Source: Patescibacteria group bacterium
Lineage (GTDB): Bacteria > Patescibacteriota > Patescibacteriia > XYB2-FULL-38-15
NCBI GenBank assembly: GCA_041650995.1
Contig: JBAZJZ010000001.1
Location: 491,302-555,301 of the forward strand
Direction of reading: 5' to 3'
Length of the DNA: 64,000 bases
In this document: in pieces, positions 531 through 43,121 of the stretch
Layout: each line of letters opens with the position of its first letter
How positions within the stretch are numbered: the first letter of the stretch is position 1
The notes under the pieces: model-generated
What the model saw: the letters and a program-made list of their open reading frames with translations, nothing else
The model's database searches: none
What the model was told of the DNA's origin: nothing
Translations under genes and position numbers: made by a program

Positions 531-542
531 AAAACACATTAT

Positions 543-690
543 CGATGCGGTAGCCGCGGGCTTTAGCCCGCGCTCTATTTGACGACGCAGCCTAAAGGCT
601 GCGACTACCAAAATAAATAATCAATTATCACGGCTGGGGCTACCAAAATTAAATCATTCGCGCCGGTAGCCGCGGGCTTTAGCCCGCGAA
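543..690. repeat. Cluster of REP-like palindromic units. Each is a short GC hairpin (cgcgggc-ttta-gcccgcg or gcagcc-taaa-ggctgc) joined to a G(A/G)CTACC tail, in alternating orientations.
   Basis: There are perfect hairpins at 555-572, 587-602 and 671-688. The GGTAGCC/G(A/G)CTACC tail recurs at 549-555, 603-609, 637-644 and 665-671. The units lie immediately 3' of the transposase gene. Confidence 0.7.
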
Positions 691-1164
691 AATCCAATCA
701 TCAAAATTATACAGTGTAGAGCCCCTAAAAGGATACCCAAGCCAGTCACGCGCCAAACCTTTTCTTTGGACATTTTCCAGAATATATTTAACTTGTTTAA
801 TGATGTCTTCATCTCTTCTTAAAATATGATCGTAAAAATCTTTTTGCCACTTAACGCCAAATTTTGAACACGAAAACCAATAGCCTGATCTTTGCTTAAA
901 TTCCACAATACACTTATACAGATTGGAGGACTCTTGTTTCCCTTCTATCACGAAGTGACAGTGATCGGGCATGAAATAATAAATATGGGCCTCACAACAA
1001 ATTTTTTTTAGTGTGCTTAATAAAATATTCTCTAATTGATTAAAAACATCCGGAGAAACAAAAAACGGTTGTCTATCCTCCAAACAAATTGTGAAAGCGC
1101 AGATTATTTGGCCGATGTAAAGATCCCTTGGTAGCCGATGCTTTCGTTCGTTAATTTTAAACAT
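679..1164 (-). CDS. REP-associated tyrosine transposase (RAYT) / IS200-IS605 family TnpA-like HUH transposase
   Basis: The 161-aa product carries an HUH motif (PDHCHFVIEG) and a downstream Tyr in ...KYILENVQRKGL..., matching the Y1 transposase / Transposase_17 fold. It is flanked on both sides by REP-type hairpins. Confidence 0.7.
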   Translation of the reverse strand: MFKINERKHRLPRDLYIGQIICAFTICLEDRQPFFVSPDVFNQLENILLSTLKKICCEAHIYYFMPDHCHFVIEGKQESSNLYKCIVEFKQRSGYWFSCSKFGVKWQKDFYDHILRRDEDIIKQVKYILENVQRKGLARDWLGYPFRGSTLYNFDDWIFAG

Positions 1165-1183
1165 TGATTGCTCTTTTAACTCA

Positions 1184-1207
1184 GGCTATAAAGCCTGCGG
1201 CTACCTA
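1184..1207. repeat. REP-like hairpin unit (caggct-ataa-agcctg + cGGCTACC) on the 5' side of the RAYT gene
   Basis: It has the same hairpin-plus-GGCTACC architecture as the units at 543-690, so REP units bracket the transposase gene. Confidence 0.65.
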
Positions 1208-1215
1208 TATCAAAC

Positions 1216-2397
1216 CTACATCAACGCGTACAACGCTGTCATCGCCGCGCCCAAAATAAAAAGCGCGACCCAACTATCCGGAAAAAAGAAAAGAACAACA
1301 AGGGCAAGAACACTTACAATAAGTTTTCCTAAAACTAAAGCCATCTGAAGAAAAACAACTGAGTTCATCACACTGGTTTTTTTCGCTTCATCATAGATAA
1401 TCGCCGCGAGCGGAACGCCGACTGTTCGTCTTGAAACCCGATACAGCGAATCAGACATAAAAACGCCGACACCGGAAACCACCAAAACCCTCATAAGCCA
1501 AGTAAAAGCGGTAAAAATAACCCCTATTTTCAAAACCTCGTGCCTTGATTCTTCGTCAGTAATCCTTCCGATGTATAAAGTTAAAATTGTCGCCACAAAA
1601 ACTGAGGCGGAAACTAAAAATCCGATGGAGGCGTAAGCCGGAATCATTAAAAAAATAAAAATTGGCCAAAGGTAGCCAGCCAGATGTTCTTCGCCAAAAC
1701 CAAAATAAGAAAAAAGTCTCCGGCGATTTTCCGGCGCGACGAGCCGCTTCATGGAATCCTTATAAGAAAAAGGCACGGGCACAAATTTTTCCGGAGTGGT
1801 AAGAAGCGGAATGTTTGAAACTAAAATTAAAAAAGCGACGATAATAAATAAAACTTTAAATCCCATGGTCGCGATAACAACGCCGCCAAACGCCGGACCC
1901 AAAATCATAACTATGGAATCGAGCACCACTAAATTGGAAATTTCCCTGCCGCGCGATCCGTCTTTTCCGAAACGGGCAAAATCGGCGTGATAACCAGGCC
2001 AATAAAGAGTTTTTTGGATTGCCAGAGAAATAATCGCGCTTACAATAAAAAACGGGTGATAGGGAATGGCAAATAAAGACAAATAAAAAAGAATTAAAAA
2101 GGGCGTGGAAAAAAGAATCGCGTGTTCGTAGCCGCGGGCCCGGGCAAATTTTCCACCAAGCGGCACTAATAAAAAATACAACGCGTAAACGGCGATGTAA
2201 AAAACTAATATTTTAGATAAAGAAAATCCCAATGTGTAAAGATAAATGGGTTCAAAAACACCAACAGCAGAAATGGCAAAATCCAAAATTGCTGTTGACC
2301 AAAAAAGTTCTTTCAACTCCCGCGCCATGCCGTCGGCGAAATAACGATGAAAAATTTTTTGTAAAAACATCTGATTACGGCTCAATTTACGGCTCAA
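1216..2397 (-). CDS. MFS-type transporter (about 12 predicted transmembrane segments)
   Basis: The 393-aa product is strongly hydrophobic with a periodic TM pattern. A G-x-x-x-A-R-G loop follows TM2, as is typical of MFS transporters. Confidence 0.55.
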   Translation of the reverse strand: MSRKLSRNQMFLQKIFHRYFADGMARELKELFWSTAILDFAISAVGVFEPIYLYTLGFSLSKILVFYIAVYALYFLLVPLGGKFARARGYEHAILFSTPFLILFYLSLFAIPYHPFFIVSAIISLAIQKTLYWPGYHADFARFGKDGSRGREISNLVVLDSIVMILGPAFGGVVIATMGFKVLFIIVAFLILVSNIPLLTTPEKFVPVPFSYKDSMKRLVAPENRRRLFSYFGFGEEHLAGYLWPIFIFLMIPAYASIGFLVSASVFVATILTLYIGRITDEESRHEVLKIGVIFTAFTWLMRVLVVSGVGVFMSDSLYRVSRRTVGVPLAAIIYDEAKKTSVMNSVVFLQMALVLGKLIVSVLALVVLFFFPDSWVALFILGAAMTALYALM

Positions 2398-2417
2398 TTA
2401 TCAAATCCGATCTATTT

Positions 2418-3380
2418 TCAGCAACTTGCTTTTTTGTTTCCCTGAAACCACCTTACCGTCATCTCTAATCCTTCATCTAAATTTACGTTTGGCTTCCAGC
2501 CAAGTTCGCGACGAATTTTTGAAGAATCTAAAACGCTACGCATTTGTTCTCCGGCAACTTTGCCGGCGGCCTTGCCCTGCCCGACCGGCGCGCCAAAAAT
2601 TTCGGAAGCGCGGGAACCGGTTAATTTCTTTAAAGTTTTAAAAAGCTTTAGAACGCTTGTTTCGCGAGCCGTTCCAACATTAAAAGGTCCTACCTTTTTT
2701 GATCTCAACGCCAAAAGATTTGCCCGAACAACGTCACCGACGTAAATGTAATCTCTGGTTTGTTTGCCATTGCCAAAAATAACCGGCTGCTTTCCTTGGA
2801 GCATTTTATTGGTAAAAATGGCAACTACTCCGGCTTCGCCATGCGGCGATTGGCGCGGTCCATAAACATTGGCTAAACGCAGAGCAATATATTTCATGCC
2901 ATAAGTCTTCCAAAAATAATGCAAATACATTTCCGTGGAAAATTTTGCCGCGCCGTAAGGAGAGGCGGGCAAAGAAATTTTATCTTCCGGAGTCGGCAAA
3001 ACTGTCTCCTCGGAAGAAAGATTACCGCCGCTTGAAGCAAAAATTATTTTCTTCACGCCCGCATTAGCGGCATTCTGTAAAATATTTATTGACCCAAGCA
3101 CGTTTACTTCCGCGTCAAACATTGGATCGCGCGCCGAAGCCCGCGCATCTATTTGAGCGGCATAATGAAATACCGCCTGGGGCTTTTCCTTTTTAAAAAT
3201 GCTGCCAATTTTTTTATCACGAATATCAACTTTATAAAACTTTGCTTTTGGATTAAGATTTTCCTTTCTGCCTGTAGACAAATTATCAAGCACAACGACC
3301 TGGTGACCGCGTCCGACAAGCGCATCCACAATGTGAGAGCCGATGAATCCTGCGCCGCCAGTGACAATAATCTTTGCCAT
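2418..3380 (-). CDS. NAD-dependent sugar-nucleotide epimerase/dehydratase (extended SDR; GalE / UDP-glucuronate decarboxylase-like)
   Basis: The N-terminus carries the TGGAGFIGSH Rossmann motif. The YxxxK catalytic signature (YGAAK) is present. Length is 320 aa. Confidence 0.8.
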   Translation of the reverse strand: MAKIIVTGGAGFIGSHIVDALVGRGHQVVVLDNLSTGRKENLNPKAKFYKVDIRDKKIGSIFKKEKPQAVFHYAAQIDARASARDPMFDAEVNVLGSINILQNAANAGVKKIIFASSGGNLSSEETVLPTPEDKISLPASPYGAAKFSTEMYLHYFWKTYGMKYIALRLANVYGPRQSPHGEAGVVAIFTNKMLQGKQPVIFGNGKQTRDYIYVGDVVRANLLALRSKKVGPFNVGTARETSVLKLFKTLKKLTGSRASEIFGAPVGQGKAAGKVAGEQMRSVLDSSKIRRELGWKPNVNLDEGLEMTVRWFQGNKKASC

Positions 3381-3416
3381 AAATATAAATTTTCAATTTT
3401 TAAACTATATATAATT

Positions 3417-4526
3417 TTATTTATTATTCTGTTCCTTTTTCCATTTTAAATATGCCTCCATAAACTGTTCCAAATCTCCATTAAGCACCGCGTCTGTATC
3501 CGCTGTTTCAAGTTTTGTTCTGTGATCTTTAACCATTCGGTACGGCTGCAAAACATATGACCGAATTTGATTTCCCCACGCCGCCAAAACTCCGGCTCGT
3601 AATTTATCAATTTCCTTTGTTCGGGTCTCCTCCTGCAGATGTAAAATTTTTGCTTTCAAAATTTTTAGGGCGGTTTCTTTATTTTGAGCCTGTGAACGTT
3701 CGCGCTGGCAGCTTACGGTGAGACCCGTGGGAAGATGAACAACTCTAACGGCCGAATAAGTTGTCTGCACGCTTTGTCCGCCGTGTCCGCTTGATAGATA
3801 TGTGTCGATCCGCAAATCTTTCGAATCCAATTTTATTTCTGAGACATCGTCAATTTCCGGCAAAACTTCAACTAAAGCAAACGAAGTATGCCGCATTTTT
3901 TCCGCATCAAAGGGAGAAATACGGACTAAGCGATGAACACCGGATTCACTCCGAAGCCATCCATAAGCCATCCGACCGGTGACTCTTACTGTTATGCTCT
4001 TAATGCCCGCTTCAGAACCACGCGTTTCATCAATAATTTCTGTTTTCCATCCCTTCTTCTCGCAAAACCTAAAATACATTCTGAGAAGCATCTCTGCCCA
4101 ATCCTGGGCTTCAGTGCCGCCCGTTCCGGCATGAATACTCAAAATGGCGTTCGCTCGATCGTGCGGGCCGGAAAATAAAACAAAAAATTCCAACTTCCTA
4201 AATTGAACGAGAAGCTCATTATATTTTTTTTCAATCTCTTCGCGCAAAGAAACTTCTTTGTCCTTTTGATCGAGCTTGGCCAAATCCAAAATATCCCCCA
4301 CTTCTTTTTTTAATTTTTCCCAAACTTCAACCTCTTCTTTCAAATCATTCAATCTCTGGTTCGTTTCCTTCGCCGCTTCCTGATCTTTCCAAAACTCCGG
4401 CGCCAAAGTTAATTTTTCCAATTTGACGATTTCTTTTTTACTATTTCCTAACTTTAAAAGTTCAAAGGCCTTTTCTATCCTCTGCTCCAACTCTTCTATG
4501 CTTTTAACTAATTCGTCCATTTTCAT
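3417..4526 (-). CDS. prfB: Peptide chain release factor 2
   Basis: The SPF tripeptide and the GGQ motif (SGHGGQSVQTT) are both present. The gene is encoded as a single uninterrupted ORF with no programmed +1 frameshift site. Confidence 0.9.
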   Translation of the reverse strand: MKMDELVKSIEELEQRIEKAFELLKLGNSKKEIVKLEKLTLAPEFWKDQEAAKETNQRLNDLKEEVEVWEKLKKEVGDILDLAKLDQKDKEVSLREEIEKKYNELLVQFRKLEFFVLFSGPHDRANAILSIHAGTGGTEAQDWAEMLLRMYFRFCEKKGWKTEIIDETRGSEAGIKSITVRVTGRMAYGWLRSESGVHRLVRISPFDAEKMRHTSFALVEVLPEIDDVSEIKLDSKDLRIDTYLSSGHGGQSVQTTYSAVRVVHLPTGLTVSCQRERSQAQNKETALKILKAKILHLQEETRTKEIDKLRAGVLAAWGNQIRSYVLQPYRMVKDHRTKLETADTDAVLNGDLEQFMEAYLKWKKEQNNK

Positions 4527-4553
4527 AATTTACAACTAACCTCCCGATTAAAG

Positions 4554-5801
4554 TTATTCTTTATACTCGGCAAGTGTTACTCTCACATCTTTTTCTTCGC
4601 CTTTGTGCAAAACTTTCAAAGTTATTTCATCGCCCGGCTTAGATTTAGCAATTTCCTTGGCTAAAGGATGATCTTCGTCTATTTTTTGACCATTCATTTC
4701 CAAAATTATATCATTCTCAACCAAACCCGCTTTGTCGGCCGGTGAGCCGGGCACTATGGCTAAATCCGTCTGCTTTTGGCCGCGGACAATTAATGCCCCA
4801 TAATCTTTTTCCAATTGATTTTCCTTGGCTATTTCTTGATTAATCAAAACATAACGAACGCCGAGCCATGGCCGAATAATTTTTCCATTCATTTTTACGC
4901 TCTCTATATCCTGCTTGGCCGCATTAATCGGAATAGCAAAACCGATCAACTGTCCTTCCTGGTTCATCGCTGTGTTAATGCCAATAACCTGCCCAGCGAG
5001 ATTCACGAGCGGTCCGCCGGAATTTCCCGGATTTATAGCCGCGTCAGTTTGAAGCGCTTCTTCAATAACCTCTGAACCACCAAGTCGATCACTCGCCACG
5101 ATCCGTCGCCCTATGCCAGAAATTATGCCTTTAGTCACGGCATTTTTATATTCCCCGAGAGAATTACCGATGGCAATAACCGTCTGACCAATTTCAATTT
5201 TATCGGAATCTCCCAATTCCACGGTTGGCAAATCTTTGGCGTCAATTTTTAAGACGGCAATATCCAAAACCGGATCAGTGGCTAAAATTTTCGCGTCATA
5301 TCTTTGATCGTCATTTGTAATAACCGTATATTCCGCCGCTGTGTCTGAGACCACATGTTTATTAGTTAAAATCAACCCATCCGAAGAAATTATAAAGCCC
5401 GTTCCCCCGCCAATTTCCGTTTTGCCCGTGCCGCCACTATTACCGCCCGTGTTTGGCTGCTCAAAACCAAAAGGAAAATTAAAACCAAACAAATCGTAAG
5501 GAAAAGTATTTGAATTATTAATTTTACTTAAATCTTTAGAAATAATTATTGAAACAACGGCCGGAGCAACTTTTTTTACGGCGCTAATTGTTGCCGACTC
5601 CTCAATAACCGCCTGAGTAAACACTCTCTCACTTTCATCGTTTCCGATTACAACGTCTTCACCTAAAAAATTCTTTTGAAACCATGGAACAATATGGCTC
5701 TTACCATAAAGCCCGCCGAGCACACCACCCACTCCGCCAAAAATTAAGCCAACGAGCGCCGCAACAGCAATAATTTTTTGAAAAGATTTATCTTGAAACA
5801 T
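4554..5801 (-). CDS. htrA: HtrA/DegP-family periplasmic serine protease with a C-terminal PDZ domain
   Basis: There is an N-terminal TM anchor, a trypsin-like catalytic core with GNSGGPL around the active Ser, and a C-terminal PDZ-like region. Confidence 0.85.
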   Translation of the reverse strand: MFQDKSFQKIIAVAALVGLIFGGVGGVLGGLYGKSHIVPWFQKNFLGEDVVIGNDESERVFTQAVIEESATISAVKKVAPAVVSIIISKDLSKINNSNTFPYDLFGFNFPFGFEQPNTGGNSGGTGKTEIGGGTGFIISSDGLILTNKHVVSDTAAEYTVITNDDQRYDAKILATDPVLDIAVLKIDAKDLPTVELGDSDKIEIGQTVIAIGNSLGEYKNAVTKGIISGIGRRIVASDRLGGSEVIEEALQTDAAINPGNSGGPLVNLAGQVIGINTAMNQEGQLIGFAIPINAAKQDIESVKMNGKIIRPWLGVRYVLINQEIAKENQLEKDYGALIVRGQKQTDLAIVPGSPADKAGLVENDIILEMNGQKIDEDHPLAKEIAKSKPGDEITLKVLHKGEEKDVRVTLAEYKE

Positions 5802-5871
5802 AGGTTTGAAAATTCCTAATTGACCTAATTAACCTAACGTCTAAATAAATCACAGTATCCAATAACCAAAA

Positions 5872-5891
5872 CTTTAGACATTAGACATTTT
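5872..5891 (-). promoter_or_regulatory. Conserved 20-mer (rc AAAATGTCTAATGTCTAAAG; tandem TGTCTAA heptads) about 70-90 nt upstream of htrA
   Basis: The same motif in the same gene-relative orientation and at similar distance lies upstream of topA at 36440-36459. Neighbouring short motifs (TTTGGTCATTT, AGAAATT) are also shared. Confidence 0.4.
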
Positions 5892-5930
5892 AGCATTTGG
5901 TCATTTATTAAAAATTAGAAATTGGGTTAA

Positions 5931-6245
5931 TTATTTATTCATCCTTTTATTAAATCTATAAATTACTTGCGCAAAATTATTTATTTTATTTTTTCTGACC
6001 TCTATCCCCTCTTCTCCAAGCAGTTCTGCCTTTTTTCTGATTCCACCGGCATATCCACCCAAACTTCCATCTGCTTTTACCACCCGATGACAAGGAATTT
6101 TTATGGGATGAGGATTTTTATGAAGAGCATTTCCAACCGCCCGGGGGCTGGTCTTTAAAATTCGCGCGATTTCTCCATATGTCGAAACTTTTCCCTTCGG
6201 AATTTTTTTCACCAACAATAAAACTTTTTCCTGAAACGGAGTCAT
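5931..6245 (-). CDS. ogt: Methylated-DNA--protein-cysteine methyltransferase (Ogt/MGMT DNA-binding domain type)
   Basis: The PCHRVV active-site motif is present. The likely true start is the internal Met (MTPFQEKV...) at 6245; the longer track ORF to 6293 would read through the upstream terminator hairpin. Confidence 0.8.
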   Translation of the reverse strand: MTPFQEKVLLLVKKIPKGKVSTYGEIARILKTSPRAVGNALHKNPHPIKIPCHRVVKADGSLGGYAGGIRKKAELLGEEGIEVRKNKINNFAQVIYRFNKRMNK

Positions 6246-6282
6246 ATTAATTATAGCAAAAAAATGGGTAAAAGTTAATAAA

Positions 6283-6310
6283 AGAGAGAGCACCCTTTAC
6301 TGCTCTCTCT
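6283..6310 (-). terminator. Rho-independent terminator hairpin (AGAGAGAGCA / TGCTCTCTCT stem) followed by a T-run on the minus strand
   Basis: A perfect 10-bp inverted repeat with an 8-nt loop sits immediately downstream of the Cys-rich peptide ORF on the minus strand. The minus strand then reads TTTTATTAACTTTT. Confidence 0.6.
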
Positions 6311-6334
6311 CAAGGCTGACCTACCCCACACCGA

Positions 6335-6502
6335 CTAGCACTTGCAGTCGCAACTGCAATCGGCGCAATCGCAACAGTCGCAATTGCTGCGGTCGCCGGA
6401 GGTCTGTGGGCCTCTCGAAGTCCGCCGCAGGTCCTTCTTCGACAACGGCTTGGCAGCCGCCCTCTTGCCCTTGAGGGCACGGACCATTTGCACAGCGCTC
6501 AT
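6335..6502 (-). CDS. 55-aa Cys/Asp-rich candidate RiPP precursor peptide (MSAVQMVRALKGKRAAAKPLSKKDLRRTSRGPQTSGDRSNCDCCDCADCSCDCKC)
   Basis: Hand translation of the minus strand gives this peptide. Its ATG overlaps the TGA stop of the upstream radical SAM gene (ATGA), and an AAGGAGGT Shine-Dalgarno sits 6 nt upstream. It has a basic leader and a C-terminal core with 8 Cys and 6 Asp in 16 residues. It falls below the 60-aa cutoff of the ORF track. Confidence 0.7.
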   Translation of the reverse strand: MSAVQMVRALKGKRAAAKPLSKKDLRRTSRGPQTSGDRSNCDCCDCADCSCDCKC

Positions 6503-7602
6503 TCCTTTACCTCCTTTCTACTGATAATTTCCTCTGGGTCGAAATGAGTCCAGAGGAAAGGACAGCCTCCTACACACTTCCCCCAGTGACGACAGCCCTT
6601 ACACTTCTCGTGAGGATATCGCCATATCTCACGCCGGAAGACTCCGTGGATGCCCTTCCTGCCGTACCAGACCTTGGCAAAGTCTGTCGCGGTTTTTACG
6701 GATTGCTCGCTCAGGTTGAAGAGCGGCCGCCCGACGAAGTGAGTGCACGGCAGAACATTGCCGTTAGGTTCGAACACCGCACCCGAGCCATAGAAGATGT
6801 GACAGTGGACACCATCGGAGATGCAGCCGATGGTCATCATCTCGTCCAGCAACGATTGATCAAACAAGCACAACGGAATCGTCGCGAAGAACTTCACCTT
6901 GATTCCTTTCGCCTTTAACGCCAAATAGGCGTCGGTGACGATTTGAGCCGTATGGGCCGGAGACAAGGCGAAAGACTCAGTTTTCTCTTGGCTACCGCCA
7001 GCCGAAGGCAAACCAACGTTAAAGAGGATGTTAACCACTCCCATTTTGTGCATCAACTCAGCTAGCGGAATCACTTCTCCGAAGTTGTGTCTGCTGACAG
7101 TCAGCAGAGTGTTGAACGACAGACCAAGCCTGAGACAATTCTCCACGCCCGCCATCGTCTCTCGAAAACTCAAGGTTCTGGTCACCGCGTTGTGGACTTT
7201 GGCGCTAGATCCCTCTACAGAGATGCTAGCGTGCTTTAGCCCGACATCGACAAGCGACCGTATGTACAGAGGATTGGCTAGTCTGCGTCCGTTGGTCACC
7301 AACTTGAACTCGATGTCAAACTGACTGCCTGCGCGTATCAGTTCAGCCAATCGGGGGTAGAGTGTTGGCTCACCGCCGATCAACAAACAGTCAGACGCTC
7401 CCATCTCTTTCATCATTCCACAGATTCTGATAGCCTGGTCAAAATCCATTGGCCGATCAACGAACTGACTGTGTTCGGCATAGCAACCGGCGCAATGATT
7501 GTTGCAGCCATAAGTCAACGCCAACCAGAACGTCTTGATCTGCGGTCGTTCTGTCCTTCCCATTTTTCTCTCCTTGCTTCTTCGCCAAGAACTCACGTTC
7601 AT
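6499..7602 (-). CDS. Radical SAM enzyme with a C-terminal SPASM/twitch domain (peptide-modifying maturase type)
   Basis: The CX3CX2C motif is present (GCNNHCAGCYAE). The C-terminal Cys cluster (CISDGVHCH...PCTHF...CKGCRHWGKCVGGCPF) is typical of SPASM domains. GC content and codon usage are markedly higher than in neighbouring genes. Confidence 0.8.
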   Translation of the reverse strand: MNVSSWRRSKERKMGRTERPQIKTFWLALTYGCNNHCAGCYAEHSQFVDRPMDFDQAIRICGMMKEMGASDCLLIGGEPTLYPRLAELIRAGSQFDIEFKLVTNGRRLANPLYIRSLVDVGLKHASISVEGSSAKVHNAVTRTLSFRETMAGVENCLRLGLSFNTLLTVSRHNFGEVIPLAELMHKMGVVNILFNVGLPSAGGSQEKTESFALSPAHTAQIVTDAYLALKAKGIKVKFFATIPLCLFDQSLLDEMMTIGCISDGVHCHIFYGSGAVFEPNGNVLPCTHFVGRPLFNLSEQSVKTATDFAKVWYGRKGIHGVFRREIWRYPHEKCKGCRHWGKCVGGCPFLWTHFDPEEIISRKEVKE

Positions 7603-7622
7603 GTTACATTAGCGTATATTCG

Positions 7623-8297
7623 CTATGTCGTCAACACCTCAACTCCGTATTTAACTAACTGATTAAAATTCTTATTTTTTTGCCACAAAATTTCCAATTT
7701 TTTTCTAAAAGCCTGATGCAGATCATATCCCTTATCTTTTTGGCATAGATATTTTTTAAACTCATAATTTAAAATAACCGTGAGAGATTCCTTTAAATAC
7801 TCAAATTGCCGAGGAGAGAGATTTTTAACCGGCTGCTTATTTTTACAATAAGCAATAAATTGAAAGTGCAACAATTCGTGCAGGAACGTTCCTAAATAAC
7901 ATTTAGCTGACCATACCGCGCAAAGCCACACGTACCCTTTTTCATAGTTATAAGGACAACGCGGAAAAGTGGTTAAAAAACAAGTAAACTTTTTTCTGTA
8001 CAATTGTTTTCCGGTTATTTTTTCCATCAGGCTGCACGCTTCTTGGGCATTATCATCAAATAATTTTTGAGCCTCCGCCAAATTTTTCTCCAAAACTTTT
8101 TTATGTTCTTTATAATATTTTTTCAAATAAGGTATTAAAAATTTAAAAGCTTCTTTTTCGGTTTTGCCATAAATTTTTTTCCACAGACTCTCCCCTACTC
8201 TTTGTTTCCAATCAACGCCGTGGGAAATTTTATTGCAAGCATTCCACCAATTCCAGGCGTCTTTTTTAATGTCTAGCTTGATGTTTATAGTTACCAT
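7623..8297 (-). CDS. Hypothetical protein with an HExxH motif (FLHELLHFQF); possible zinc metallopeptidase
   Basis: The 224-aa ORF is AT-rich like the host genome. The only recognisable feature is the HELLH motif. It lies immediately upstream of, and co-directional with, the rSAM cassette. Confidence 0.4.
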   Translation of the reverse strand: MVTINIKLDIKKDAWNWWNACNKISHGVDWKQRVGESLWKKIYGKTEKEAFKFLIPYLKKYYKEHKKVLEKNLAEAQKLFDDNAQEACSLMEKITGKQLYRKKFTCFLTTFPRCPYNYEKGYVWLCAVWSAKCYLGTFLHELLHFQFIAYCKNKQPVKNLSPRQFEYLKESLTVILNYEFKKYLCQKDKGYDLHQAFRKKLEILWQKNKNFNQLVKYGVEVLTT

Positions 8298-8356: not shown

Positions 8357-9064
8357 TCACCCCCGCACTTCACAAATTTCAAAATTATCTTTTATTTCAT
8401 CACGCAATTTCTTTAAAAATTCTATTGAATACGGTTTTATTTCACGAAATTCCGGACTGAAAATTTTCTCGCCTGATCTAAATTGCTGCAAATAATATTT
8501 TTTTGCTCCCCTGATAAAATTCGCAAGGTCCAAAATATTTTCTTCATTATGCAGCCCCGGAACGACTGTGGTACGAAATTCATATTCTAAACCGCTTTGC
8601 ATAATAATGCCAATACTTTGTTTAATATTCTCTATATCCACTGTGGCGCCAGCAACTTTTTCATATGATTCTTTTTGCAATAAAGTTTTTATATCCATAG
8701 AAATATAATCAATCATTTTTTCCGCTATGAGCGCCTTAAGCATTTCCGGATTTGTTCCATTGGTATCTAATTTTACCAAAAAACCAAGAATTCTAATTTT
8801 TTTTATAAACTCCGGCAAATCTGGATGAAGAGTCGGCTCTCCTCCTGTGATGCAAACCCCGTCAAGCAAACCGTGGCGCGAATTTAAAAAATCAAAAAAA
8901 ACTTTTTCTTCAATAATTTCCGATAATTTAAATTCAGCCGGATCAATTAATTCCGGATTATGGCAAAAATGACAACGAAAATTACAACCGACAGTAAAAA
9001 CCGTGCAAGCAATTTTGCCGGGGTAATCAATCAAAGTTAGTTTTTGTAATCCACCGATAATCAT
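8357..9064 (-). CDS. nrdG: Anaerobic ribonucleoside-triphosphate reductase activating protein (radical SAM)
   Basis: An N-terminal CNFRCHFCHN radical SAM cluster is present. Size and gene neighbourhood (next to nrdD) fit NrdG. Confidence 0.8.
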   Translation of the reverse strand: MIIGGLQKLTLIDYPGKIACTVFTVGCNFRCHFCHNPELIDPAEFKLSEIIEEKVFFDFLNSRHGLLDGVCITGGEPTLHPDLPEFIKKIRILGFLVKLDTNGTNPEMLKALIAEKMIDYISMDIKTLLQKESYEKVAGATVDIENIKQSIGIIMQSGLEYEFRTTVVPGLHNEENILDLANFIRGAKKYYLQQFRSGEKIFSPEFREIKPYSIEFLKKLRDEIKDNFEICEVRG

Positions 9065-9135
9065 AGGGACATTTTATCACAAAACACGGCTCCCATCAAT
9101 GGAAAGCCGTGTTTTAAGATTTCATCATTTTTTAC

Positions 9136-9285
9136 TTAAACTTCTTCCAGCTGTTTATCATAAGTCTTTCTCTCTCCAAATTCCGCCTGCTTGCCATCGT
9201 TCCATTGACTTACCGGTCGAAGATAGCCGACGACGCGGGAATAAATTTCACACGCCTGCCGTTTTGATTGTTTTTCCTCCGTCAT
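9136..9285 (-). CDS. Stand-alone glycyl-radical domain minigene (49 aa: MTEEKQSKRQACEIYSRVVGYLRPVSQWNDGKQAEFGERKTYDKQLEEV)
   Basis: Hand translation shows the glycyl-radical loop consensus of class III RNR (YSRVVGY...RPV..WN.GK). The ORF lies about 30 nt downstream of the nrdD stop, in a different frame and with in-frame stops between. It is not in the ORF track (<60 aa). Confidence 0.6.
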   Translation of the reverse strand: MTEEKQSKRQACEIYSRVVGYLRPVSQWNDGKQAEFGERKTYDKQLEEV

Positions 9286-9317
9286 ATATTTATTGTTATT
9301 TATTATTTTGTGATTAA

Positions 9318-11348
9318 TTAATCTTTATAACCAATTTCTTCGTCACACTTCGGACAAAACGGATGTTCACCGGCAAGGTATCCATGTTTCGGACAGACAC
9401 TAAAAGTCGGGGTCAAAGAAAAATAAGGAAGATGAAATTGGCTCGCGATTTTTTTAACAAGTATTTTTGCCGCGTCACCAGAAGGCAATCTTTCTCCGAT
9501 AAATCCATGAAGCACTGTTCCTCCAGTATACCGCGTTTGCAGGTCGTCTTGCAAGCGCAAGGCTTCAAAATAATCATTAGTAAAGCCAACGGGCAGATGA
9601 GATGAGTTTGTGTAATAAGGAGTGGCGCCTTTTTCCCGATGAGCCTTTTCGTTGGCGACAATAATATCCGGATATTTTATTTTATCTTTTTTCACCAAAC
9701 TGTAGCTCGTGCCTTCTCCGGGAGTTGCTTCAAGATTATAAAGATTATTTGTTTCTAGTTGATAATCCATCAACCTTTCCCTCATAAAATCAAGAACGGA
9801 TTTGGCAAAATCATGGCCTTCCTCCGTAGTGATATTCCTACCCAAGAAATTGAGGCATGCCTCGTTCATACCAATCAAACCGATCGTGTTGAAATGGTTT
9901 CTCCAATATTCATTAAATCTTTCTTTTATTGGCGCGAGATAATGTCGGCAATAAGGATAAAGTCCTTTTCCGGTTAGAGTTTCCACAACTTCTCTTTTTA
10001 TTTCAAGACTCTTTTTGGCCAAATCCATTAAACGCGCCAATCTGTCAAAAAATTCTTTTCTTGTTTTTGAAAGATAACCGATGCGAGGCAAATTGATTGT
10101 TACAACGCCGATTGAACCGGTTAAAGGATTGGCCGCGAAAAGTCCGCCGCCGCGTTTTCTAAGTTCGCGGTTATCAAGGCGCAAGCGGCAACACATTGAT
10201 CGCGCGTCTTCAGCTTTCATATCTGAATTTACAAAATTGGCAAAATAAGGAATGCCGTACTTGGCCGTCATTTCCCAAATTGAATCCAACTCTTTCTTCT
10301 CCCAATTAAAATCTGGCGTGATATTATAGGTCGGAATTGGAAAAGAAAAAACTCTACCCTTCGCGTCACCAGAAATCATCACTTCGGCAAAGGCCTGATT
10401 AAACATATCCATTTCCGCCTGAAATTCTCCGTATTTTTCTTTTTGTGGCACTCCGCCAACAATCACTGCTTCATCCGCCATGTTTTTGGGCGGGGTAAGA
10501 TCCATAGTGACGTTGGTAAACGGCGTCTGAAAACCAACGCGAGTGGGAACATTAACATTAAAAACAAATTCCTGCATGGCTTGTTTCACATCTTTGTAGG
10601 ACAAACCATCATAGCGAATAAAAGGAGCAAGAAGCGTGTCAAAATTGGCAAACGCCTGCGCGCCCGCTACCTCTCCCTGAAGAGTATAAAAGAAATTAAC
10701 AATCTGCCCCAACGCGCTCCTCAAGTGTTTTGCCGGTTTTGATTCTATCTTTCCGGCAACTCCCCCAAAACCGCGCGTCAAAAGATCATGGAGATCCCAA
10801 CCGCAACAATAAGCCGCCAAAATTTGCAAATCATGAATATGAAAATCTCCATCCACGTAAGCATCTCTGATTTCGGGCGGATAAACCTTATTTAGCCAAT
10901 AATGAGAACTTATCGCTGAACTAATATGATTATTCAATCCTTGCAAAGAAAACGCCATGTTGCTGTTTTCTCGAACCAACCAATCCAATTTATCCAAATA
11001 ATTGCCCATTATCTGGTTTCCATCAACCAACGCATTCAGTTCGCGAATTTTTGCGTGCTGATCGCGGTAGAGAATATACGCTTTAGCCACCCTAATCTGT
11101 CTGGCTCTAATCAAAACTTCTTCTACAATATCCTGAATTTCTTCCACGGCCGGTATTGAACGATGATGAAATTTTTTATTTAAAATTTTCATCACCTGGT
11201 CAGAGAGCCGATTCGCTAATTTTTCGTCTTTTTCTCCGATTGCCTCTATTGCCTTTCCAACAGCTACCGTAACTTTTCCTTGGTCAAAATCAACAATGCG
11301 GCCATCTCTTTTTCTTATTTGGGTGACTTTATTTTGACTATAAATCAT
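9318..11348 (-). CDS. nrdD: Anaerobic ribonucleoside-triphosphate reductase (class III) catalytic body. It ends after the Zn-ribbon half-site and lacks the glycyl-radical loop.
   Basis: An N-terminal ATP-cone is present. The product has NrdD-like length and a C-terminal ...CPKHGY...CPKCD Zn-binding segment. The RVxGY Gly-radical motif is missing from this ORF. Confidence 0.8.
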   Translation of the reverse strand: MIYSQNKVTQIRKRDGRIVDFDQGKVTVAVGKAIEAIGEKDEKLANRLSDQVMKILNKKFHHRSIPAVEEIQDIVEEVLIRARQIRVAKAYILYRDQHAKIRELNALVDGNQIMGNYLDKLDWLVRENSNMAFSLQGLNNHISSAISSHYWLNKVYPPEIRDAYVDGDFHIHDLQILAAYCCGWDLHDLLTRGFGGVAGKIESKPAKHLRSALGQIVNFFYTLQGEVAGAQAFANFDTLLAPFIRYDGLSYKDVKQAMQEFVFNVNVPTRVGFQTPFTNVTMDLTPPKNMADEAVIVGGVPQKEKYGEFQAEMDMFNQAFAEVMISGDAKGRVFSFPIPTYNITPDFNWEKKELDSIWEMTAKYGIPYFANFVNSDMKAEDARSMCCRLRLDNRELRKRGGGLFAANPLTGSIGVVTINLPRIGYLSKTRKEFFDRLARLMDLAKKSLEIKREVVETLTGKGLYPYCRHYLAPIKERFNEYWRNHFNTIGLIGMNEACLNFLGRNITTEEGHDFAKSVLDFMRERLMDYQLETNNLYNLEATPGEGTSYSLVKKDKIKYPDIIVANEKAHREKGATPYYTNSSHLPVGFTNDYFEALRLQDDLQTRYTGGTVLHGFIGERLPSGDAAKILVKKIASQFHLPYFSLTPTFSVCPKHGYLAGEHPFCPKCDEEIGYKD

Positions 11349-11493: not shown

Positions 11494-12714
11494 TTACATT
11501 ATTTTTTTTCGAAGAAACGCGGGAATATCCAAATCTTCCGTTTCTCCCCCTTCAGCCGCGCCGACTTTCTTTGCGGAAAAATTTTTACCACCTGATTCTT
11601 TCTCGTCATTTCCGTCAATATCTCCGAACTCGGTAATTTTTTTCACCGGTCTTTTTTGAAATTGGCCGACAGATGATTTTTCGGCTTCTTTTGCCTTTCC
11701 AATAGTTGGAACGGAAAACGACCGTGGCGTCGGAGCTTCCGCGTCATAAGAAGATTTTCTTCTTTCCGTAAATCCTGTCGCAATAACAGTTATCCTTACG
11801 CTATCTTTCATGTTTTCATTTATCACCGCGCCGAAAATAACTTTAGCGTCAGGATCAGCTGAACCGGTAATAATTTTCGCCGCCTCGGCCACCTCATGCA
11901 TGCCCAAATTCGGACCGCCTGTAACTGTAAAAAGTATTCCTCGCGCTCCATCAATGGACATTTCCAAAAGCGGGGAAGAAATCGCAGCTTTAGCTGCTTC
12001 GTCGGCTCTACTTTCACCACCCGCCTCGCCGATTCCCATCATTGCCGTTCCCGCGTCTTTCATAATTGCCCGCACATCGGCAAAATCAACGTTAATCAAA
12101 CCGGGAATTGTAATTAATTCGGAAATTCCCTGAACGCCGTTTTTTAAAACCTCGTCGCAAGTCATAAAAGCGTCCAGAAGGGAAGTTTTTTTATCAATAA
12201 TTTGTAAAAGACGGTCATTCGGAATAGTAATCAATGTATCAACCTTATCTTCAAGTTCTTCGAGCGCCCGTTCAGCAATAGTCCGCCGTTGAGCCCCCTC
12301 AAAAGAAAAAGGTTTGGTCACAACTCCCACGGTTAAAGCTCCCTGGTCGCGCGCAAGCTGGGCAACAATCGGCGCCGCGCCCGATCCTGTGCCTCCGCCT
12401 AAACCGCAAGTCACAAAGACCATGTCCGCGCCTTTTAGGGCGTCTCTAATTTCATTTTGACTTTCTTCGGCAGAACGCCGACCAACTTCCGGATCCATAC
12501 CCGCTCCCAAACCGCGCGTGATAGTTTTTCCGATATGCAATCTTACGGGCGCTTCCGAATAATGAAGAGCCTGAACATCGGTATTGGCGGCAATAAATTC
12601 AACACCTCTTATTTTTGCTTTGACCATACGATTTACCGCCGATCCGCCCGATCCTCCGACGCCAACAACCTTGATCTTGGCAAAGGTTTCAATTTCTGGT
12701 TTTATTTCTGGCAT
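11494..12714 (-). CDS. ftsZ: Cell division GTPase FtsZ
   Basis: The tubulin signature [10 protein letters not shown] is present, and the gene sits next to ftsA. Confidence 0.95.
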
Positions 12715-12797: not shown

Positions 12798-14023
12798 TTA
12801 TGGCATCAAAGATTTAAACCACTTTTTGACTTGGCTTGTAACTTTATCAATACTTTTGAAACGAGAAGTAAATCCGCCGCTTCTTTCATCATATACTGCA
12901 TTGCCCCAAAGAACCAGTCCCAGGGCCGGTACAAACGACACATCATTAACCTTATCAACCACGCTTGTGATATTTTGAGGATAGCCCAAAGAAACCGGCA
13001 GACGCAATTTTCTCTTAGCGACATCTAAAATTCCCGGGAGCTTGGCGGTTGAACCGACAAGGATCACGCCTGAAGGCAAAAGGCCGCTGCGTCCAATTTT
13101 TTTCAATTCGTCATCAATTTTTTCAAAAATTTCCTCAACCCTGGCCTCAATAATTTCCGCAACGTATTTTTTAGAAATTAAAGTATTTTCCCCTGGCTCA
13201 TAATCACCAAGATTAAGCTCATCTTTTTTACTAATATCTTTTGGCAGAGCTGTGCCGTGTTCCAATTTTATTTTTTCCGCGGCATCAAGCGACGTGCGAA
13301 GGCCAATGGCGACATCCGACGTGATATGATCGCCGCCGAGTGGCAAAAAAGCCGTATGCATAACATCCCCGCCTTCAAAAACTGCGAGCTCTGTAGATGT
13401 CCGCCCGATATTGGCCACGGCTACACCCAATTCTTTCTGGCGAGGACTCGTAACCGCTTCTGATGCGGCGAGAATTGAAAAAACAACATCCTCAATATCC
13501 ACGCCCGTGCGATAAATGCATTTGGTTAAATTTTTTATATGTGAACTTAAACCTTGAATAATTTGAGTTTCTACTTCAAGCCTTACTCCGCTCATGCCGA
13601 TCGGATCGCGAATATTAACTTGACTATCGATAGAAAAAGTCCTGGGTATAACATGTAAAATTTCAAAATTGGGAGGAGTGGCAACGGCACGCGAAGCTTC
13701 GATTGATCTTTCCACGTCACCATCATCAATTTCACCGTTAGGCTTTGCCACGGCAATAACTCCTTTGCTTTTTTGGAAAATAATGTGATCACCGGAAATA
13801 CCAACCCAAACCCCGTCGACAGGAACGCCCGTGACTCGCTCAGCTGCTTCAAAAGCCGCCGCAATGCTTGAGGTGGCGTTTTCAACGCTCATGACCGTCC
13901 CGCGAGACATCCCCTCTGACGGCACCTCTATCGCAGCTAAAATTTTTGGCGCTCCGGCCAGATCCCGCTGCCCCACGACTACTCGCGCTGCAGTTGAGCC
14001 AAGGTCTAAACCGGTGATTATTT
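12798..14023 (-). CDS. ftsA: Cell division protein FtsA
   Basis: The actin-like ATPase opens with GLDLGSTAARVVVG. The track ORF begins at a TTG (14096); the first ATG (MRSEIITGLDLG...) is at 14023. Confidence 0.85.
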
Positions 14024-14177
14024 CACTTCTCATATATTGACGCTTATCTGTTCTTCGCAAGTCTTTTATTATAAATAATCCTGGAAAATTTTGCAACTTT
14101 GTTAAATTGCCACATTATTACTCTGCCAAATGGTTAATGACGTAATCAGCTTTTCACCCGAGACAACAACTTTAGGC

Positions 14178-43090: not shown

Positions 43091-43121
43091 TGTCTTTTTT
43101 AAATAAATCCAACGGTAGCGA

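What the first reader, a model, noticed from the sequence alone, without database searches (positions are those of the whole stretch)
6335..7602. Radical SAM/SPASM enzyme translationally coupled to an unannotated 55-aa Cys/Asp-rich peptide: a candidate ranthipeptide-like RiPP pair
The rSAM gene (CX3CX2C plus a SPASM Cys cluster) ends in a TGA that overlaps the ATG of a small minus-strand ORF (ATGA). A strong AAGGAGGT Shine-Dalgarno sits 6 nt upstream of that ATG. The ORF encodes MSAVQMVRALKGKRAAAKPLSKKDLRRTSRGPQTSGDRSNCDCCDCADCSCDCKC, a basic leader plus a core with 8 Cys and 6 Asp in 16 residues. A terminator hairpin follows. SPASM-type rSAM enzymes next to Cys-rich precursors are the hallmark of sactipeptide/ranthipeptide (SCIFF-type) maturation, where Cys sulfur is crosslinked to Asp/Glu or other carbons. 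The alternating C-D core is unusually compact and does not obviously match the named families I know. The peptide is absent from the ORF track (<60 aa).
Basis: partly seen in the sequence, partly recalled or inferred. Interest (0 to 1): 0.9.

Follow-up and report, generated by a model that had tools for sequence, protein, structure and literature searches.

The report
Uncharacterised Cys-Asp peptide maturation operon
A tiny-genome (Patescibacteria) bacterium carries a real, evolutionarily conserved operon in which a radical-SAM enzyme is paired with a 55-residue peptide ending in Cys-Asp-Cys repeats, often with a zinc-protease-like partner. This is an undescribed branch of the modified-peptide (RiPP) systems, shared with DPANN archaea, and its chemistry is still unknown.

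Summary
A 354-aa radical SAM/SPASM gene (6499-7563, minus strand) ends in an ATGA overlap with a 55-aa ORF (6335-6502). The ORF has its own AAGGAGGT ribosome-binding site, and a terminator hairpin follows.

The peptide is a genuine gene. In 11 related loci the core DCCDC[ASN]DCSCDC is kept, while all 12 third-codon positions vary (286 synonymous against 41 non-synonymous pairwise codon differences). Adjacent peptides with at least 6 Cys in 16 residues occur in 34% of 165 homologous loci, against 0.9% of control windows.

The enzyme has CX3CX2C plus a 7-Cys SPASM region and no RRE domain. Its model resembles SuiB, anSME and CteB, yet it reaches no curated NCBIfam family, and neither does the peptide.

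The upstream 224-aa "hypothetical" (7623-8297) is an HExxH zincin-fold protein, linked to the rSAM in 43 of 84 non-redundant loci, including DPANN archaea.

Most likely this is an RRE-less RiPP-type system that installs Cys-derived crosslinks, probably thioethers to Asp, in a CDC-repeat core. The zincin may remove the leader. The chemistry is inferred, not shown. I rate it a new variant of a known kind, of moderately high interest.

The parts
7623..8297 (-). 224-aa HExxH zincin-fold protein (putative gluzincin-type peptidase; candidate leader peptidase), first gene of the operon
7866..7880 (-). HELLH metal-binding motif (H140-H144) of the zincin-fold protein; the invariant Glu170 codon lies at 7788-7790
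   Evidence: Invariant columns in alignment A2. The motif lies on helix 131-151, and E170 on the next long helix 162-179 of the model, as in gluzincins.
6499..7563 (-). Radical SAM/SPASM maturase, 354 aa (the mechanical ORF extends to 7602); no RRE domain
   Evidence: Pfam Radical_SAM E=3.8e-23; SPASM 21.1 bits against a cut-off of 21.5. No NCBIfam family comes near its cut-off. It is 100% identical to P0001, 'radical SAM protein [Patescibacteria group bacterium]'. The AF2 model has pLDDT 93. Its full-length structural matches are SuiB (TM 0.71), anSME (0.68) and CteB (0.65).
7483..7506 (-). CX3CX2C radical-SAM cluster motif (C20, C24, C27 of the 354-aa form)
   Evidence: Invariant in 50 homologs.
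6562..6870 (-). SPASM region with 7 conserved Cys: C232, C254, C273, then C321-X2-C324-X5-C330-X3-C334
   Evidence: These Cys are invariant or at least 90% conserved in A1. The CX2CX5CX3C spacing is the SPASM signature (established knowledge, TIGR04085/PF13186).
6509..6516 (-). Shine-Dalgarno AAGGAGGT of the precursor gene, inside the 3' end of the rSAM gene
   Evidence: Read directly; 6-nt spacer to the ATG at 6502.
6335..6502 (-). Precursor peptide gene, 55 aa plus stop; ATGA overlap with the rSAM stop
   Evidence: It is conserved next to the rSAM in relatives. Codon-position test: 2, 2 and 12 variable columns at positions 1, 2 and 3, and 286 synonymous against 41 non-synonymous pairwise codon differences; the other five frames do far worse.
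6383..6502 (-). Leader region (residues 1-40): N-terminal hydrophobic-periodic segment ending in L-K-G, then A-x-P, then a variable linker
   Evidence: A leader signature (hydrophobic pair, x2-3, hydrophobic, K, G ... A, P, hydrophobic) recurs across the superfamily's predicted precursors. The anchoring is partly circular.
6338..6382 (-). Core CDCCDCADCSCDCKC (8 Cys, 4 Asp in 15 residues)
   Evidence: DCCDC[ASN]DCSCDC is conserved in 11 loci. Across the superfamily, cores are 30% Cys and 19% Asp, CXC is the commonest Cys spacing, and X is Asp in 118 of 242 cases.
6271..6310 (-). Intrinsic-terminator-like hairpin (10-bp perfect stem, 8-nt loop) plus T-rich tail, closing the operon
   Evidence: -22.1 kcal/mol; inverted repeat I7. 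The energy z-score is only -1.6, and the consensus scan did not flag it.

Best explanation
This is a small RiPP-type operon on the minus strand: an HExxH zincin-fold protein, then a radical SAM/SPASM maturase, then a translationally coupled precursor peptide, then a terminator.

The proposed mechanism has four steps.

1. The precursor has an N-terminal leader with a conserved '...LKG...AxP' signature and a C-terminal core made of Cys-Asp-Cys units.
2. The maturase is a minimal enzyme of about 350 aa: a radical SAM barrel plus a SPASM domain with two auxiliary Fe-S clusters, and no RRE/PqqD domain. It binds the leader directly.
3. Using 5'-deoxyadenosyl radicals, it modifies the core several times at or next to the Cys residues. 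Most probably it makes intramolecular thioether bridges from Cys sulfur to a carbon of the interleaved Asp (or other) residues, as sactipeptide and ranthipeptide synthases do. The product would be a very compact, multiply bridged peptide.
4. The linked zincin-fold protein most probably removes the leader.

**Shown here:** gene anatomy and coupling; coding conservation of the peptide; co-inheritance of peptide and enzyme (and of the zincin in about half of loci) across CPR bacteria and DPANN archaea; the radical SAM and SPASM motifs and fold; the zincin fold and metal-ligand motif; absence from all curated families searched.

**Inferred:** that the peptide is the enzyme's substrate (about 0.8); that the modification is a thioether (about 0.45); that the zincin is the leader peptidase (about 0.4).

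The product's biological role is unknown. Signalling, antagonism and metal binding in an episymbiotic lifestyle are all possible.
For: - **Anatomy.** ATGA overlap, Shine-Dalgarno site and terminator.
- **Peptide under purifying selection in this frame only**.
- **Cys-rich small ORFs are strongly enriched beside homologous rSAMs.** At least 6 Cys in 16 residues in 56 of 165 loci against 0.9% of 1112 control windows; at least 5 Cys in 52% against 4.5%.
- **Core type tracks enzyme relatedness.** CDCCDCxDCSCDC accompanies 43-63%-identity enzymes; other CDC/CXC cores accompany 26-40% enzymes.
- **Shared leader signature**.
- **Enzyme motifs and fold.** CX3CX2C and the 7-Cys SPASM region are invariant. 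The fold is nearest to the peptide-modifying SPASM enzymes SuiB, CteB and SkfB, and to anSME.
- **Neighbourhood.** Only two gene families are conserved near the peptide: the rSAM (84 of 84 loci) and the HExxH protein (43 of 84). No transporter, RRE protein or sulfatase is conserved.
- **Zincin fold and ligands**.
- **Chemical precedent.** A radical SAM enzyme, PapB, links Cys S to Asp C-beta and accepts spacings from directly adjacent to six residues (PMC9413430).
Against: - No experiment or mass-spectrometry data exists, so the chemistry rests on analogy.
- The enzyme matches none of the curated thioether-synthase models, and sequence similarity to any characterised enzyme is remote.
- Asp is frequent but not universal between the Cys. 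Ala, Ser, His, Asn, Lys and Val also occur, so Asp may not be the acceptor.
- Thioethers between neighbouring residues would make unusually small rings; PapB processes CX0D only poorly.
- The HExxH protein is found without any rSAM in 6 of 6 look-ups on long contigs, including the closest relative at the same chromosomal position.
- Its GC3 (0.35) differs sharply from the rSAM's (0.63). It may therefore be a general housekeeping peptidase that is merely adjacent.
- No exporter or immunity gene is present.
Confidence: 0.55

Rival explanations
1. The pairing is the same but the chemistry or purpose differs. The peptide is the precursor of an intracellular metal-binding peptide or peptide-derived cofactor (PQQ- or mycofactocin-like logic, or a metallothionein-like chelator). 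The rSAM then performs another Cys-centred reaction, for example Cys to formylglycine or dehydro-residue, C-S/C-C chemistry other than sacti/ranthionine bridges, or cluster or metal insertion.
For: - CXC repeats with 30% Cys, 19% Asp and 10% Gly resemble metal-chelating sequences.
- No exporter, immunity gene or other tailoring gene is conserved.
- The best (sub-threshold) HMM similarities are to cofactor-type SPASM enzymes: NirJ2, AhbD, PqqE, MftC and MoaA.
- The hosts are metabolically minimal CPR and DPANN organisms.
- The size and RRE-less architecture match anSME (TM 0.68).
Against: - All those HMM scores are 5-8 fold below the family cut-offs.
- Precursors carry a conserved leader plus a hypervariable core, typical of RiPP natural products rather than cofactors.
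- Core length and repeat number vary widely, from 2 to more than 12 Cys, which is unusual for a cofactor.
- The distribution is patchy, and GC3 discordance suggests accessory, laterally moving genes.
Confidence: 0.25
2. The functional unit is only the two-gene rSAM-peptide cassette. The HExxH protein is an unrelated resident housekeeping gene, next to which the cassette tends to land or be retained.
For: - Six of six HExxH homologs on long contigs lack any rSAM nearby and sit in varied contexts.
- The 76%-identical homolog in L165 keeps the FtsZ-NrdD-NrdG-HExxH order without the cassette.
- GC3 is 0.35 against 0.63 within one operon.
- Clostridia, Bacilli and many CPR loci have peptide and rSAM with no HExxH gene.
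Against: - Adjacency is seen in 43 of 84 non-redundant rSAM loci.
- It occurs in two different gene orders, with 5-35 nt spacing in DPANN archaea.
- It persists at only 25-34% identity across two domains of life.
- No other gene family shows any such linkage.

Chance or a shared insertion hot spot is therefore unlikely.
Confidence: 0.3
3. The HExxH partner is not a protease. It is an alpha-ketoglutarate/Fe(II) HExxH oxygenase that hydroxylates Asp (or cleaves the backbone oxidatively), as ChlH, BpmH and PflC do in other RiPP pathways.
Against: - No NCBIfam model was hit by the window protein or two of three homologs scanned; the third gave only a sub-threshold YydH/LiaK hit, so no alpha-KG-HExxH model was matched if the library holds one.
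- An invariant Glu 26 residues after the motif fits the gluzincin third ligand.
- The host encodes anaerobic ribonucleotide reductase next door, and the partner enzyme is an oxygen-sensitive rSAM. This argues, by inference, against O2-dependent chemistry.
Confidence: 0.07
4. The small ORF is a chance or alternative-frame artefact, and the rSAM is a stand-alone enzyme such as an anaerobic sulfatase maturase.
For: The ORF is short and of low complexity, and two other ORFs overlap it in other frames (6310..6480 on the minus strand, 6342..6524 on the plus strand). No NCBI source lists the peptide, although the neighbouring genes are in the NCBI record.
Against: - The third-codon-position variation pattern (2/2/12) and 286:41 synonymous to non-synonymous differences hold only in the Cys/Asp frame.
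- The peptide is conserved in at least 11 close loci and about 100 wider loci.
- It shows 38-fold enrichment over control windows.
- anSME scores 47 bits against 349.
- No sulfatase is conserved nearby.
Confidence: 0.01

Closest known systems
SCIFF / thermocellin systems (precursor TIGR03973 with maturase TIGR03974; CteA/CteB, Tte1186)
   Same: A compact cassette of a roughly 45-55-aa precursor with a Cys-rich C-terminal core and one SPASM radical SAM enzyme, with no dedicated transporter. The CteB structure is a full-length structural match (TM 0.65).
   Different: Neither the peptide nor the enzyme hits the SCIFF models. There is no N-terminal RRE-like domain: the enzyme is about 350 aa and CX3CX2C starts at residue 20. 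The core is CDC repeats rather than the SCIFF motif. The hosts are CPR bacteria and DPANN archaea. An HExxH partner is frequent.
Freyrasin PapA/PapB (ranthipeptide)
   Same: The core is built from repeated Cys and Asp. PapB forms Cys-S to Asp-C-beta thioethers and tolerates spacings from adjacent to six residues (PMC9413430). This is the best chemical precedent for a Cys/Asp core.
   Different: PapA uses CX3D units. Here the conserved unit is CXC with Asp between the Cys. CX3D occurs twice by position in this core but is not the conserved spacing. No close sequence relationship was found.
QhpD/QhpC (quinohemoprotein amine dehydrogenase gamma-subunit maturation)
   Same: A SPASM radical SAM enzyme makes several Cys-to-Asp/Glu thioethers in a small Cys-rich polypeptide (established knowledge).
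   Different: QhpD is not among the 25 best HMM hits. There are no qhp dehydrogenase genes nearby. The product there is an enzyme subunit.
Anaerobic sulfatase-maturating enzyme (anSME)
   Same: The same minimal architecture (about 370 aa, RRE-less, radical SAM plus SPASM) and a full-length structural match (TM 0.68). It acts on a Cys in a peptide substrate.
   Different: HMM score is 47 bits against a cut-off of 349. No sulfatase is linked. A dedicated small precursor is co-inherited instead.
Gluzincin metallopeptidases (M1 aminopeptidase and thermolysin catalytic domains) and RiPP HExxH leader peptidases such as YydH/LiaK
   Different: It meets no Pfam or NCBIfam peptidase model. The only trace is YydH/LiaK at 14 bits against 225, for one homolog. 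It is a stand-alone 224-aa soluble domain, widespread in CPR genomes outside any RiPP context.

Membership tests
Radical SAM superfamily (PF04055) | CX3CX2C motif binding the SAM-cleaving [4Fe-4S] cluster; match to the Pfam model above its gathering score | tested here: met
   C20-X3-C24-X2-C27 is invariant in 50 homologs. PF04055 scores 82.9 bits against a cut-off of 29.5.
SPASM subfamily (PF13186 / TIGR04085) | C-terminal extension with 7 Cys, including CX2CX5CX3C, for two auxiliary [4Fe-4S] clusters | tested here: met
   C232, C254, C273 and C321-X2-C324-X5-C330-X3-C334 are conserved. Full-length structural matches to the SPASM enzymes SuiB, anSME and CteB have TM 0.65-0.71.
SPASM subfamily (PF13186 / TIGR04085) | Pfam SPASM model at or above its gathering score | tested here: inconclusive
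   21.1 bits against a cut-off of 21.5. Some homologs carry the precomputed PF13186 hit (P0003, P0070).
SCIFF system | Precursor matches TIGR03973 and maturase matches TIGR03974 at their cut-offs | tested here: not met
   The peptide hits no NCBIfam family at E<=1. The maturase model is not among the 25 best hits, all of which are at most 73 bits.
Ranthipeptides (class) | Thioether from Cys sulfur to a non-alpha carbon (C-beta or C-gamma) of the acceptor residue | not testable with these tools
   Needs mass spectrometry and NMR of the modified peptide. Only the Cys/Asp composition and the PapB precedent bear on it.
Sactipeptides (class) | Thioether from Cys sulfur to the alpha carbon of the acceptor residue | not testable with these tools
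   The sactisynthase SkfB is the best PDB sequence hit but only over the radical SAM core (E=1e-22). StsB scores 57.6 bits against 625.
RRE-dependent RiPP maturases | N-terminal or separate PqqD-like RiPP recognition element | tested here: not met
   CX3CX2C begins at residue 20, and the model has no winged-helix domain before the barrel. There is no PF05402 hit. No conserved third small gene of that kind occurs in 84 loci.
Anaerobic sulfatase maturase (TIGR03942) | Match to the equivalog model; linkage to a sulfatase substrate | tested here: not met
   47 bits against a cut-off of 349.45. No sulfatase lies among the window neighbours or conserved neighbours.
PapB/freyrasin type | Repeated CX3D (or CX3E) units in the core | tested here: not met
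   The commonest Cys spacing is CXC (242 of the spacings counted), with Asp as X in 118. CX3D occurs only incidentally in this core (C1-D5, C4-D8).
Gluzincin metallopeptidases (for the 224-aa partner) | HExxH on one helix plus a Glu ligand on the following helix; zincin fold | tested here: met
Named peptidase families (Pfam M1, M4 etc.; NCBIfam YydH/LiaK NF058609) | Match to the family model at its cut-off | tested here: not met
   No Pfam family at E<=0.001. No NCBIfam family for the window protein; one homolog gives 14 bits against 225 for NF058609.
Alpha-KG-dependent HExxH beta-hydroxylases (IPR026337) | Match to the family model; Fe/alpha-KG-dependent hydroxylation | tested here: inconclusive

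The most novel reading that the evidence does not exclude
This is the founding example of a large, undescribed RiPP (or peptide-cofactor) superfamily. Its features would be: CDC/CXC-repeat cores; a shared 'LKG...AP' leader read without an RRE by a minimal roughly 350-aa SPASM enzyme; and a dedicated minimal gluzincin. It would be exchanged between the ultra-small CPR bacteria and DPANN archaea. Its product would carry a crosslink pattern not yet seen, for example a ladder of very small Cys-Asp thioether rings or a new Cys-derived metal-binding motif, possibly used in episymbiont-host interaction.
Probability: 0.3. Interest if true: 0.85.

Novelty: new variant of a known kind. Interest (0 to 1): 0.66.

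Why it matters
Radical SAM/SPASM enzymes beside Cys-rich peptides are a known theme, but this branch is absent from the curated libraries searched (Pfam, NCBIfam). No description turned up in eight literature searches.

The branch is large. At least 150 clusters at 50% identity score E<=5e-69, and 1,442 score E<=1e-30.

It has three unusual features:
- the most Cys-dense alternating core seen here, with CDC units;
- leader recognition without an RRE;
- a linked minimal zincin.

It is concentrated in CPR bacteria and DPANN archaea. These organisms have tiny genomes and few accessory pathways, and almost nothing is known about their secreted or signalling molecules. The cassette is two or three small genes, so its chemistry is directly testable by heterologous co-expression. 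That could yield a new crosslink type or a compact thioether-stapling enzyme useful for peptide engineering.

Tried and rejected
- **Named SPASM families (SCIFF, CcpM, QhpD, anSME, PqqE, MftC, NirJ, HxsC).** All are far below cut-off or absent from the top 25. Representatives of five other sub-clades also hit nothing at cut-off.
- **Named precursor families.** Nothing for this peptide or 10 relatives at E<=10.
- **Defence-system models (PADLOC).** Only a partial generic viperin-type radical SAM similarity.
- **Mobile-element borders for the GC-rich cassette.** No convincing direct or inverted repeats at 6300 or 7620, and no integrase nearby.
- **Gain versus loss of the cassette relative to L165.** By eye the HExxH-rSAM intergenic region looked similar. 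A local alignment scored 20 against a shuffle mean of 15.2 +/- 2.2 (maximum 26), which is not significant, so the idea was dropped.
- **A sigma-70 promoter between the HExxH and rSAM genes.** None passed the scan. Co-transcription with the HExxH gene is assumed, not shown.
- **Terminator.** The consensus scan missed it; the fold and the inverted-repeat search found it.
- **PDB sequence search with the HExxH profile.** Nothing significant; only fold comparison identified it.
- **Literature.** Searches for ranthipeptide or radical SAM RiPPs in Patescibacteria, CPR or DPANN, and for CxC/HExxH combinations, gave no description of this family.
- **AFDB fold search.** The library was unavailable.
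- **Cys threshold.** A cut-off of at least 4 Cys in 16 residues proved too loose (21% of control windows), so thresholds of 5 and 6 are used for the enrichment claim.
Full report
**1. The observation**

On the minus strand, ORF 6499..7602 encodes a protein with a CX3CX2C motif. Its TGA stop overlaps the ATG of ORF 6335..6502 (ATGA). That ORF translates to MSAVQMVRALKGKRAAAKPLSKKDLRRTSRGPQTSGDRSNCDCCDCADCSCDCKC.

- AAGGAGGT (6516-6509) lies 6 nt upstream of the peptide ATG.
- A perfect 10-bp hairpin with a T-rich tail follows the stop (6310-6283; -22 kcal/mol). The consensus terminator scan did not report it.
- Two corrections apply. The 15-residue core has 8 Cys and 4 Asp, and 6 Asp is the total for the whole peptide. 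The enzyme probably starts at ATG 7563 (354 aa, AAGGAG 6 nt upstream), as in the identical database protein P0001 from a Patescibacteria MAG and as in its homologs.
- No other small ORF in the 64-kb window is comparably Cys-dense.

**2. The peptide is a real gene**

In 11 related loci the core DCCDC[A/S/N]DCSCDC is preserved. All 12 third-codon positions vary, against 2 first and 2 second positions. This includes Ser AGT/AGC to TCC/TCG switches. Pairwise codon differences are 286 synonymous against 41 non-synonymous in this frame. The other five frames give 0-252 synonymous against 111-373 non-synonymous.

Database searches add four more called peptides with the same core (P0242-P0245).

Across 165 loci encoding relatives of the enzyme, an adjacent same-strand small ORF with at least 6 Cys in 16 residues is present in 56 (34%). 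The rate in 1112 control windows from the same loci is 0.9%. For at least 5 Cys the figures are 52% against 4.5%.

**3. The enzyme**

- Pfam finds Radical_SAM (E=3.8e-23) and a borderline SPASM match (21.1 bits against 21.5).
- In 50 homologs the radical SAM Cys triad is invariant. Seven further Cys are conserved: C232, C254, C273 and C321-X2-C324-X5-C330-X3-C334. This is the SPASM arrangement.
- An AlphaFold2 model (pLDDT 93) matches SuiB (TM 0.71), anSME (0.68) and CteB (0.65) over its full length. BlsE, SkfB and MoaA match over the core. The PDB sequence search gives the same remote set.
- There is no N-terminal RRE: the cluster motif begins at residue 20.
- Against NCBIfam the best score is 73 bits (NirJ2, cut-off 500). 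anSME scores 47 against 349. SCIFF maturase, CcpM and QhpD are not in the top 25.
- Representatives of other sub-clades also meet no curated family.
- The family is large. Of the 1.84 billion 50%-identity representatives, 1,442 score E<=1e-30. The best 150 all score E<=5e-69, and most are 330-365 aa.

**4. Relatives and their precursors**

Scans of GTDB species genomes and JGI metagenomes returned 160 loci. Look-ups by exact protein returned ten more: four around rSAM homologs (L161-L164, included in the locus statistics) and six around HExxH homologs.

| Enzyme identity to window | Hosts | Precursor position and core |
|---|---|---|
| 43-63% | CPR: Parcubacteria, Uhrbacteria, Veblenbacteria | Immediately downstream; ...CDCCDCxDCSCDC(KC/VN) |
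| 31-38% | Mostly DPANN archaea: Woese-, Pace- and Nanoarchaeota | Upstream; e.g. ...DCCYGADCGDCDCGGYCIDSECD |
| 26-31% | Clostridia, Bacilli, Saccharibacteria, other CPR | Downstream; e.g. CPCKCQCQCDC, or repeats of HCSSDDCxxCYxC |

Minimal cores also exist...NCDCKK and ...CDCRGCD...

Over 94 non-redundant cores the composition is 30% Cys, 19% Asp and 10% Gly. The commonest Cys spacing is CXC, and X is Asp in 118 of 242 cases.

Leaders share a signature: a hydrophobic pair, then hydrophobic-K-G, then hydrophobic-x-A-P-hydrophobic. The anchoring used to show this is partly circular. The window peptide has ...VRALKGKRAAAKPL.

**5.

The 224-aa 'hypothetical' ORF directly upstream (7623-8297) recurs beside the rSAM and peptide. 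It is 49-65% identical in close CPR loci, where it sits either upstream of the rSAM or downstream of the peptide. It is 25-34% identical in DPANN loci, 5-35 nt downstream of the rSAM.

Clustering all ORFs within 3 kb in 84 non-redundant loci (at least 30% identity) found only two conserved families: the rSAM (84 loci) and this protein (43 loci). No transporter, RRE protein or other tailoring enzyme is conserved.

There are caveats.
- The family is broader than the rSAM association. Six of six homologs looked up on long contigs have no rSAM nearby.
- One of these is a 76%-identical homolog in the same FtsZ-NrdD-NrdG-HExxH context without the cassette (L165).
- Those loci carry no Cys-rich ORF.

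**6. Composition**

The rSAM and peptide form a GC island of 51-58%, against 32-42% around them. GC3 is 0.63 for the rSAM and 0.35 for the adjacent HExxH gene. Similar discordance occurs in L164 and L004-L008, but not in the DPANN loci.

This fits lateral arrival of the two-gene cassette next to a resident HExxH gene. However, no border repeats or recombinase were found. Gain versus loss relative to L165 could not be resolved.

**7. Mechanism**

The shown and inferred steps are as follows.
- **Shown:** the operon anatomy, translational coupling, and co-inheritance of the parts.
- **Inferred (about 0.8):** the peptide is the substrate of the rSAM.
- **Inferred (about 0.45):** the modification is multiple Cys-derived thioether bridges. 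This rests on what SPASM enzymes do to Cys-rich cores (sacti- and ranthipeptide synthases, QhpD). It also rests on PapB, which links Cys S to Asp C-beta and accepts spacings from directly adjacent to six residues, though adjacent ones poorly (PMC9413430).
- **Inferred (about 0.4):** the zincin removes the leader.

Several points argue against a simple Cys-Asp ranthionine model.
- Asp is not universal between the Cys.
- The rings would be very small.
- No curated thioether-synthase model is matched.

The main rival (0.25) is a different Cys-centred chemistry or an intracellular metal-binding or cofactor role. This is suggested by the metallothionein-like CXC pattern, the absence of export genes, and the cofactor-type enzymes among the weak HMM hits.

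**8. Comparison with known systems, and novelty**

It works most like SCIFF/thermocellin, freyrasin (PapA/PapB) and QhpC/QhpD. Architecturally it resembles anSME.

It fails the membership tests for SCIFF, anSME, PapB-type CX3D cores, RRE-dependent maturases and named peptidase families. It meets those for the radical SAM superfamily, the SPASM subfamily (motif and fold) and the gluzincin signature.

Literature searches found only generic antiSMASH-type mentions of ranthipeptide clusters in these phyla. None describes this family.

I classify it as a new variant of a known kind: a real, sizeable, uncurated rSAM-RiPP branch. Its distinctive features are the CDC-repeat core, RRE-less recognition, a linked minimal zincin, and a CPR/DPANN-centred distribution. 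Interest is 0.66. The chemistry and the biological role remain to be determined experimentally.

Noticed in passing
window 6300-7600 versus 7623-8297 and flanks: GC3 is sharply discordant inside one apparent operon: rSAM and peptide 0.63, HExxH gene 0.35, flanks about 0.40 GC. The same pattern occurs in several related loci (L164, L004-L008) but not in DPANN loci. This suggests repeated lateral arrival of the two-gene cassette next to a resident gene, though no mechanism was seen.
   Followed up: partly
L165 (CAZYOM010000016.1) 1-7684: A close relative has the same FtsZ-NrdD-NrdG-HExxH order (its HExxH protein is 76% identical) but lacks the rSAM and peptide. An aromatic-amino-acid lyase and HisRS follow instead. 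Gain versus loss is unresolved: the intergenic similarity is not above shuffles.
   Followed up: partly
window 8357-11348 (-): Anaerobic ribonucleotide reductase NrdD (676 aa, with ATP-cone) and an NrdG-like radical SAM activase (235 aa) lie directly upstream of the operon. FtsZ (11494-12714) and FtsA (12798-14096) lie beyond. This indicates an anaerobic host.
   Followed up: no
proteins P0153, P0162, P0164, P0195, P0205, P0169; locus L166 3020-4202: Some members of the HExxH family are fused to a transglutaminase-core (cysteine-protease-like) domain or to a NUDIX domain. In L166 a separate Transglut_core gene ends 4 nt before the HExxH gene. This hints at a broader proteolytic role for the family.
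   Followed up: no
L018 3800-5660 versus L016, L019, L022: A contig binned as 'Patescibacteria group bacterium' carries the same precursor (...ASDCCYGADCGDCDCGGYCIDSECD), rSAM and HExxH genes as Woesearchaeota contigs. This is either a binning error or a recent CPR-DPANN transfer.
   Followed up: no
L146, L148, L150, L153-L160 (Bathyarchaeia and metagenome contigs), about 400-600 nt upstream of the rSAM match: Precursor-like ORFs ending ...CVCACHACACACACVSCACACAGGGAR (alternating Cys with Ala or Val, no Asp) lie near a more distant SPASM enzyme (28-30% identity). The alternating-Cys theme therefore extends beyond Asp-containing cores.
   Followed up: no
proteins P0259, P0265, P0277, P0279, P0301, P0317, P0325, P0376: Proteins of about 920-1320 aa contain 3-4 tandem matches to this rSAM family. 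They may be fused multi-maturase proteins or mis-joined gene calls.
   Followed up: no
L009/L084 1261-1392; L086 3210-3344; L025 4828-4944: Relatives at 36-43% enzyme identity have precursors with very short cores (...NCDCKK; ...GCDCRGCDKD; ...SCDCRGCDNS). A single CDC unit may be the minimal modification site.
   Followed up: partly
L164 3978-4946: The closest rSAM homolog with long flanks (63% identity, HExxH gene upstream) is shorter (322 aa) and has no detectable Cys-rich ORF on either side. The cassette may be decaying there.
   Followed up: partly
window 42742-43198 (+) and 31254-31330 (-): There is a tRNA cluster of Leu(CAA), Met(CAT) and Met(CAT), plus tRNA-Val(CAC). ARAGORN reports four tRNAs, whereas Rfam at gathering threshold reports three; the Met tRNA at 42877-42951 is missed.
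   Followed up: no
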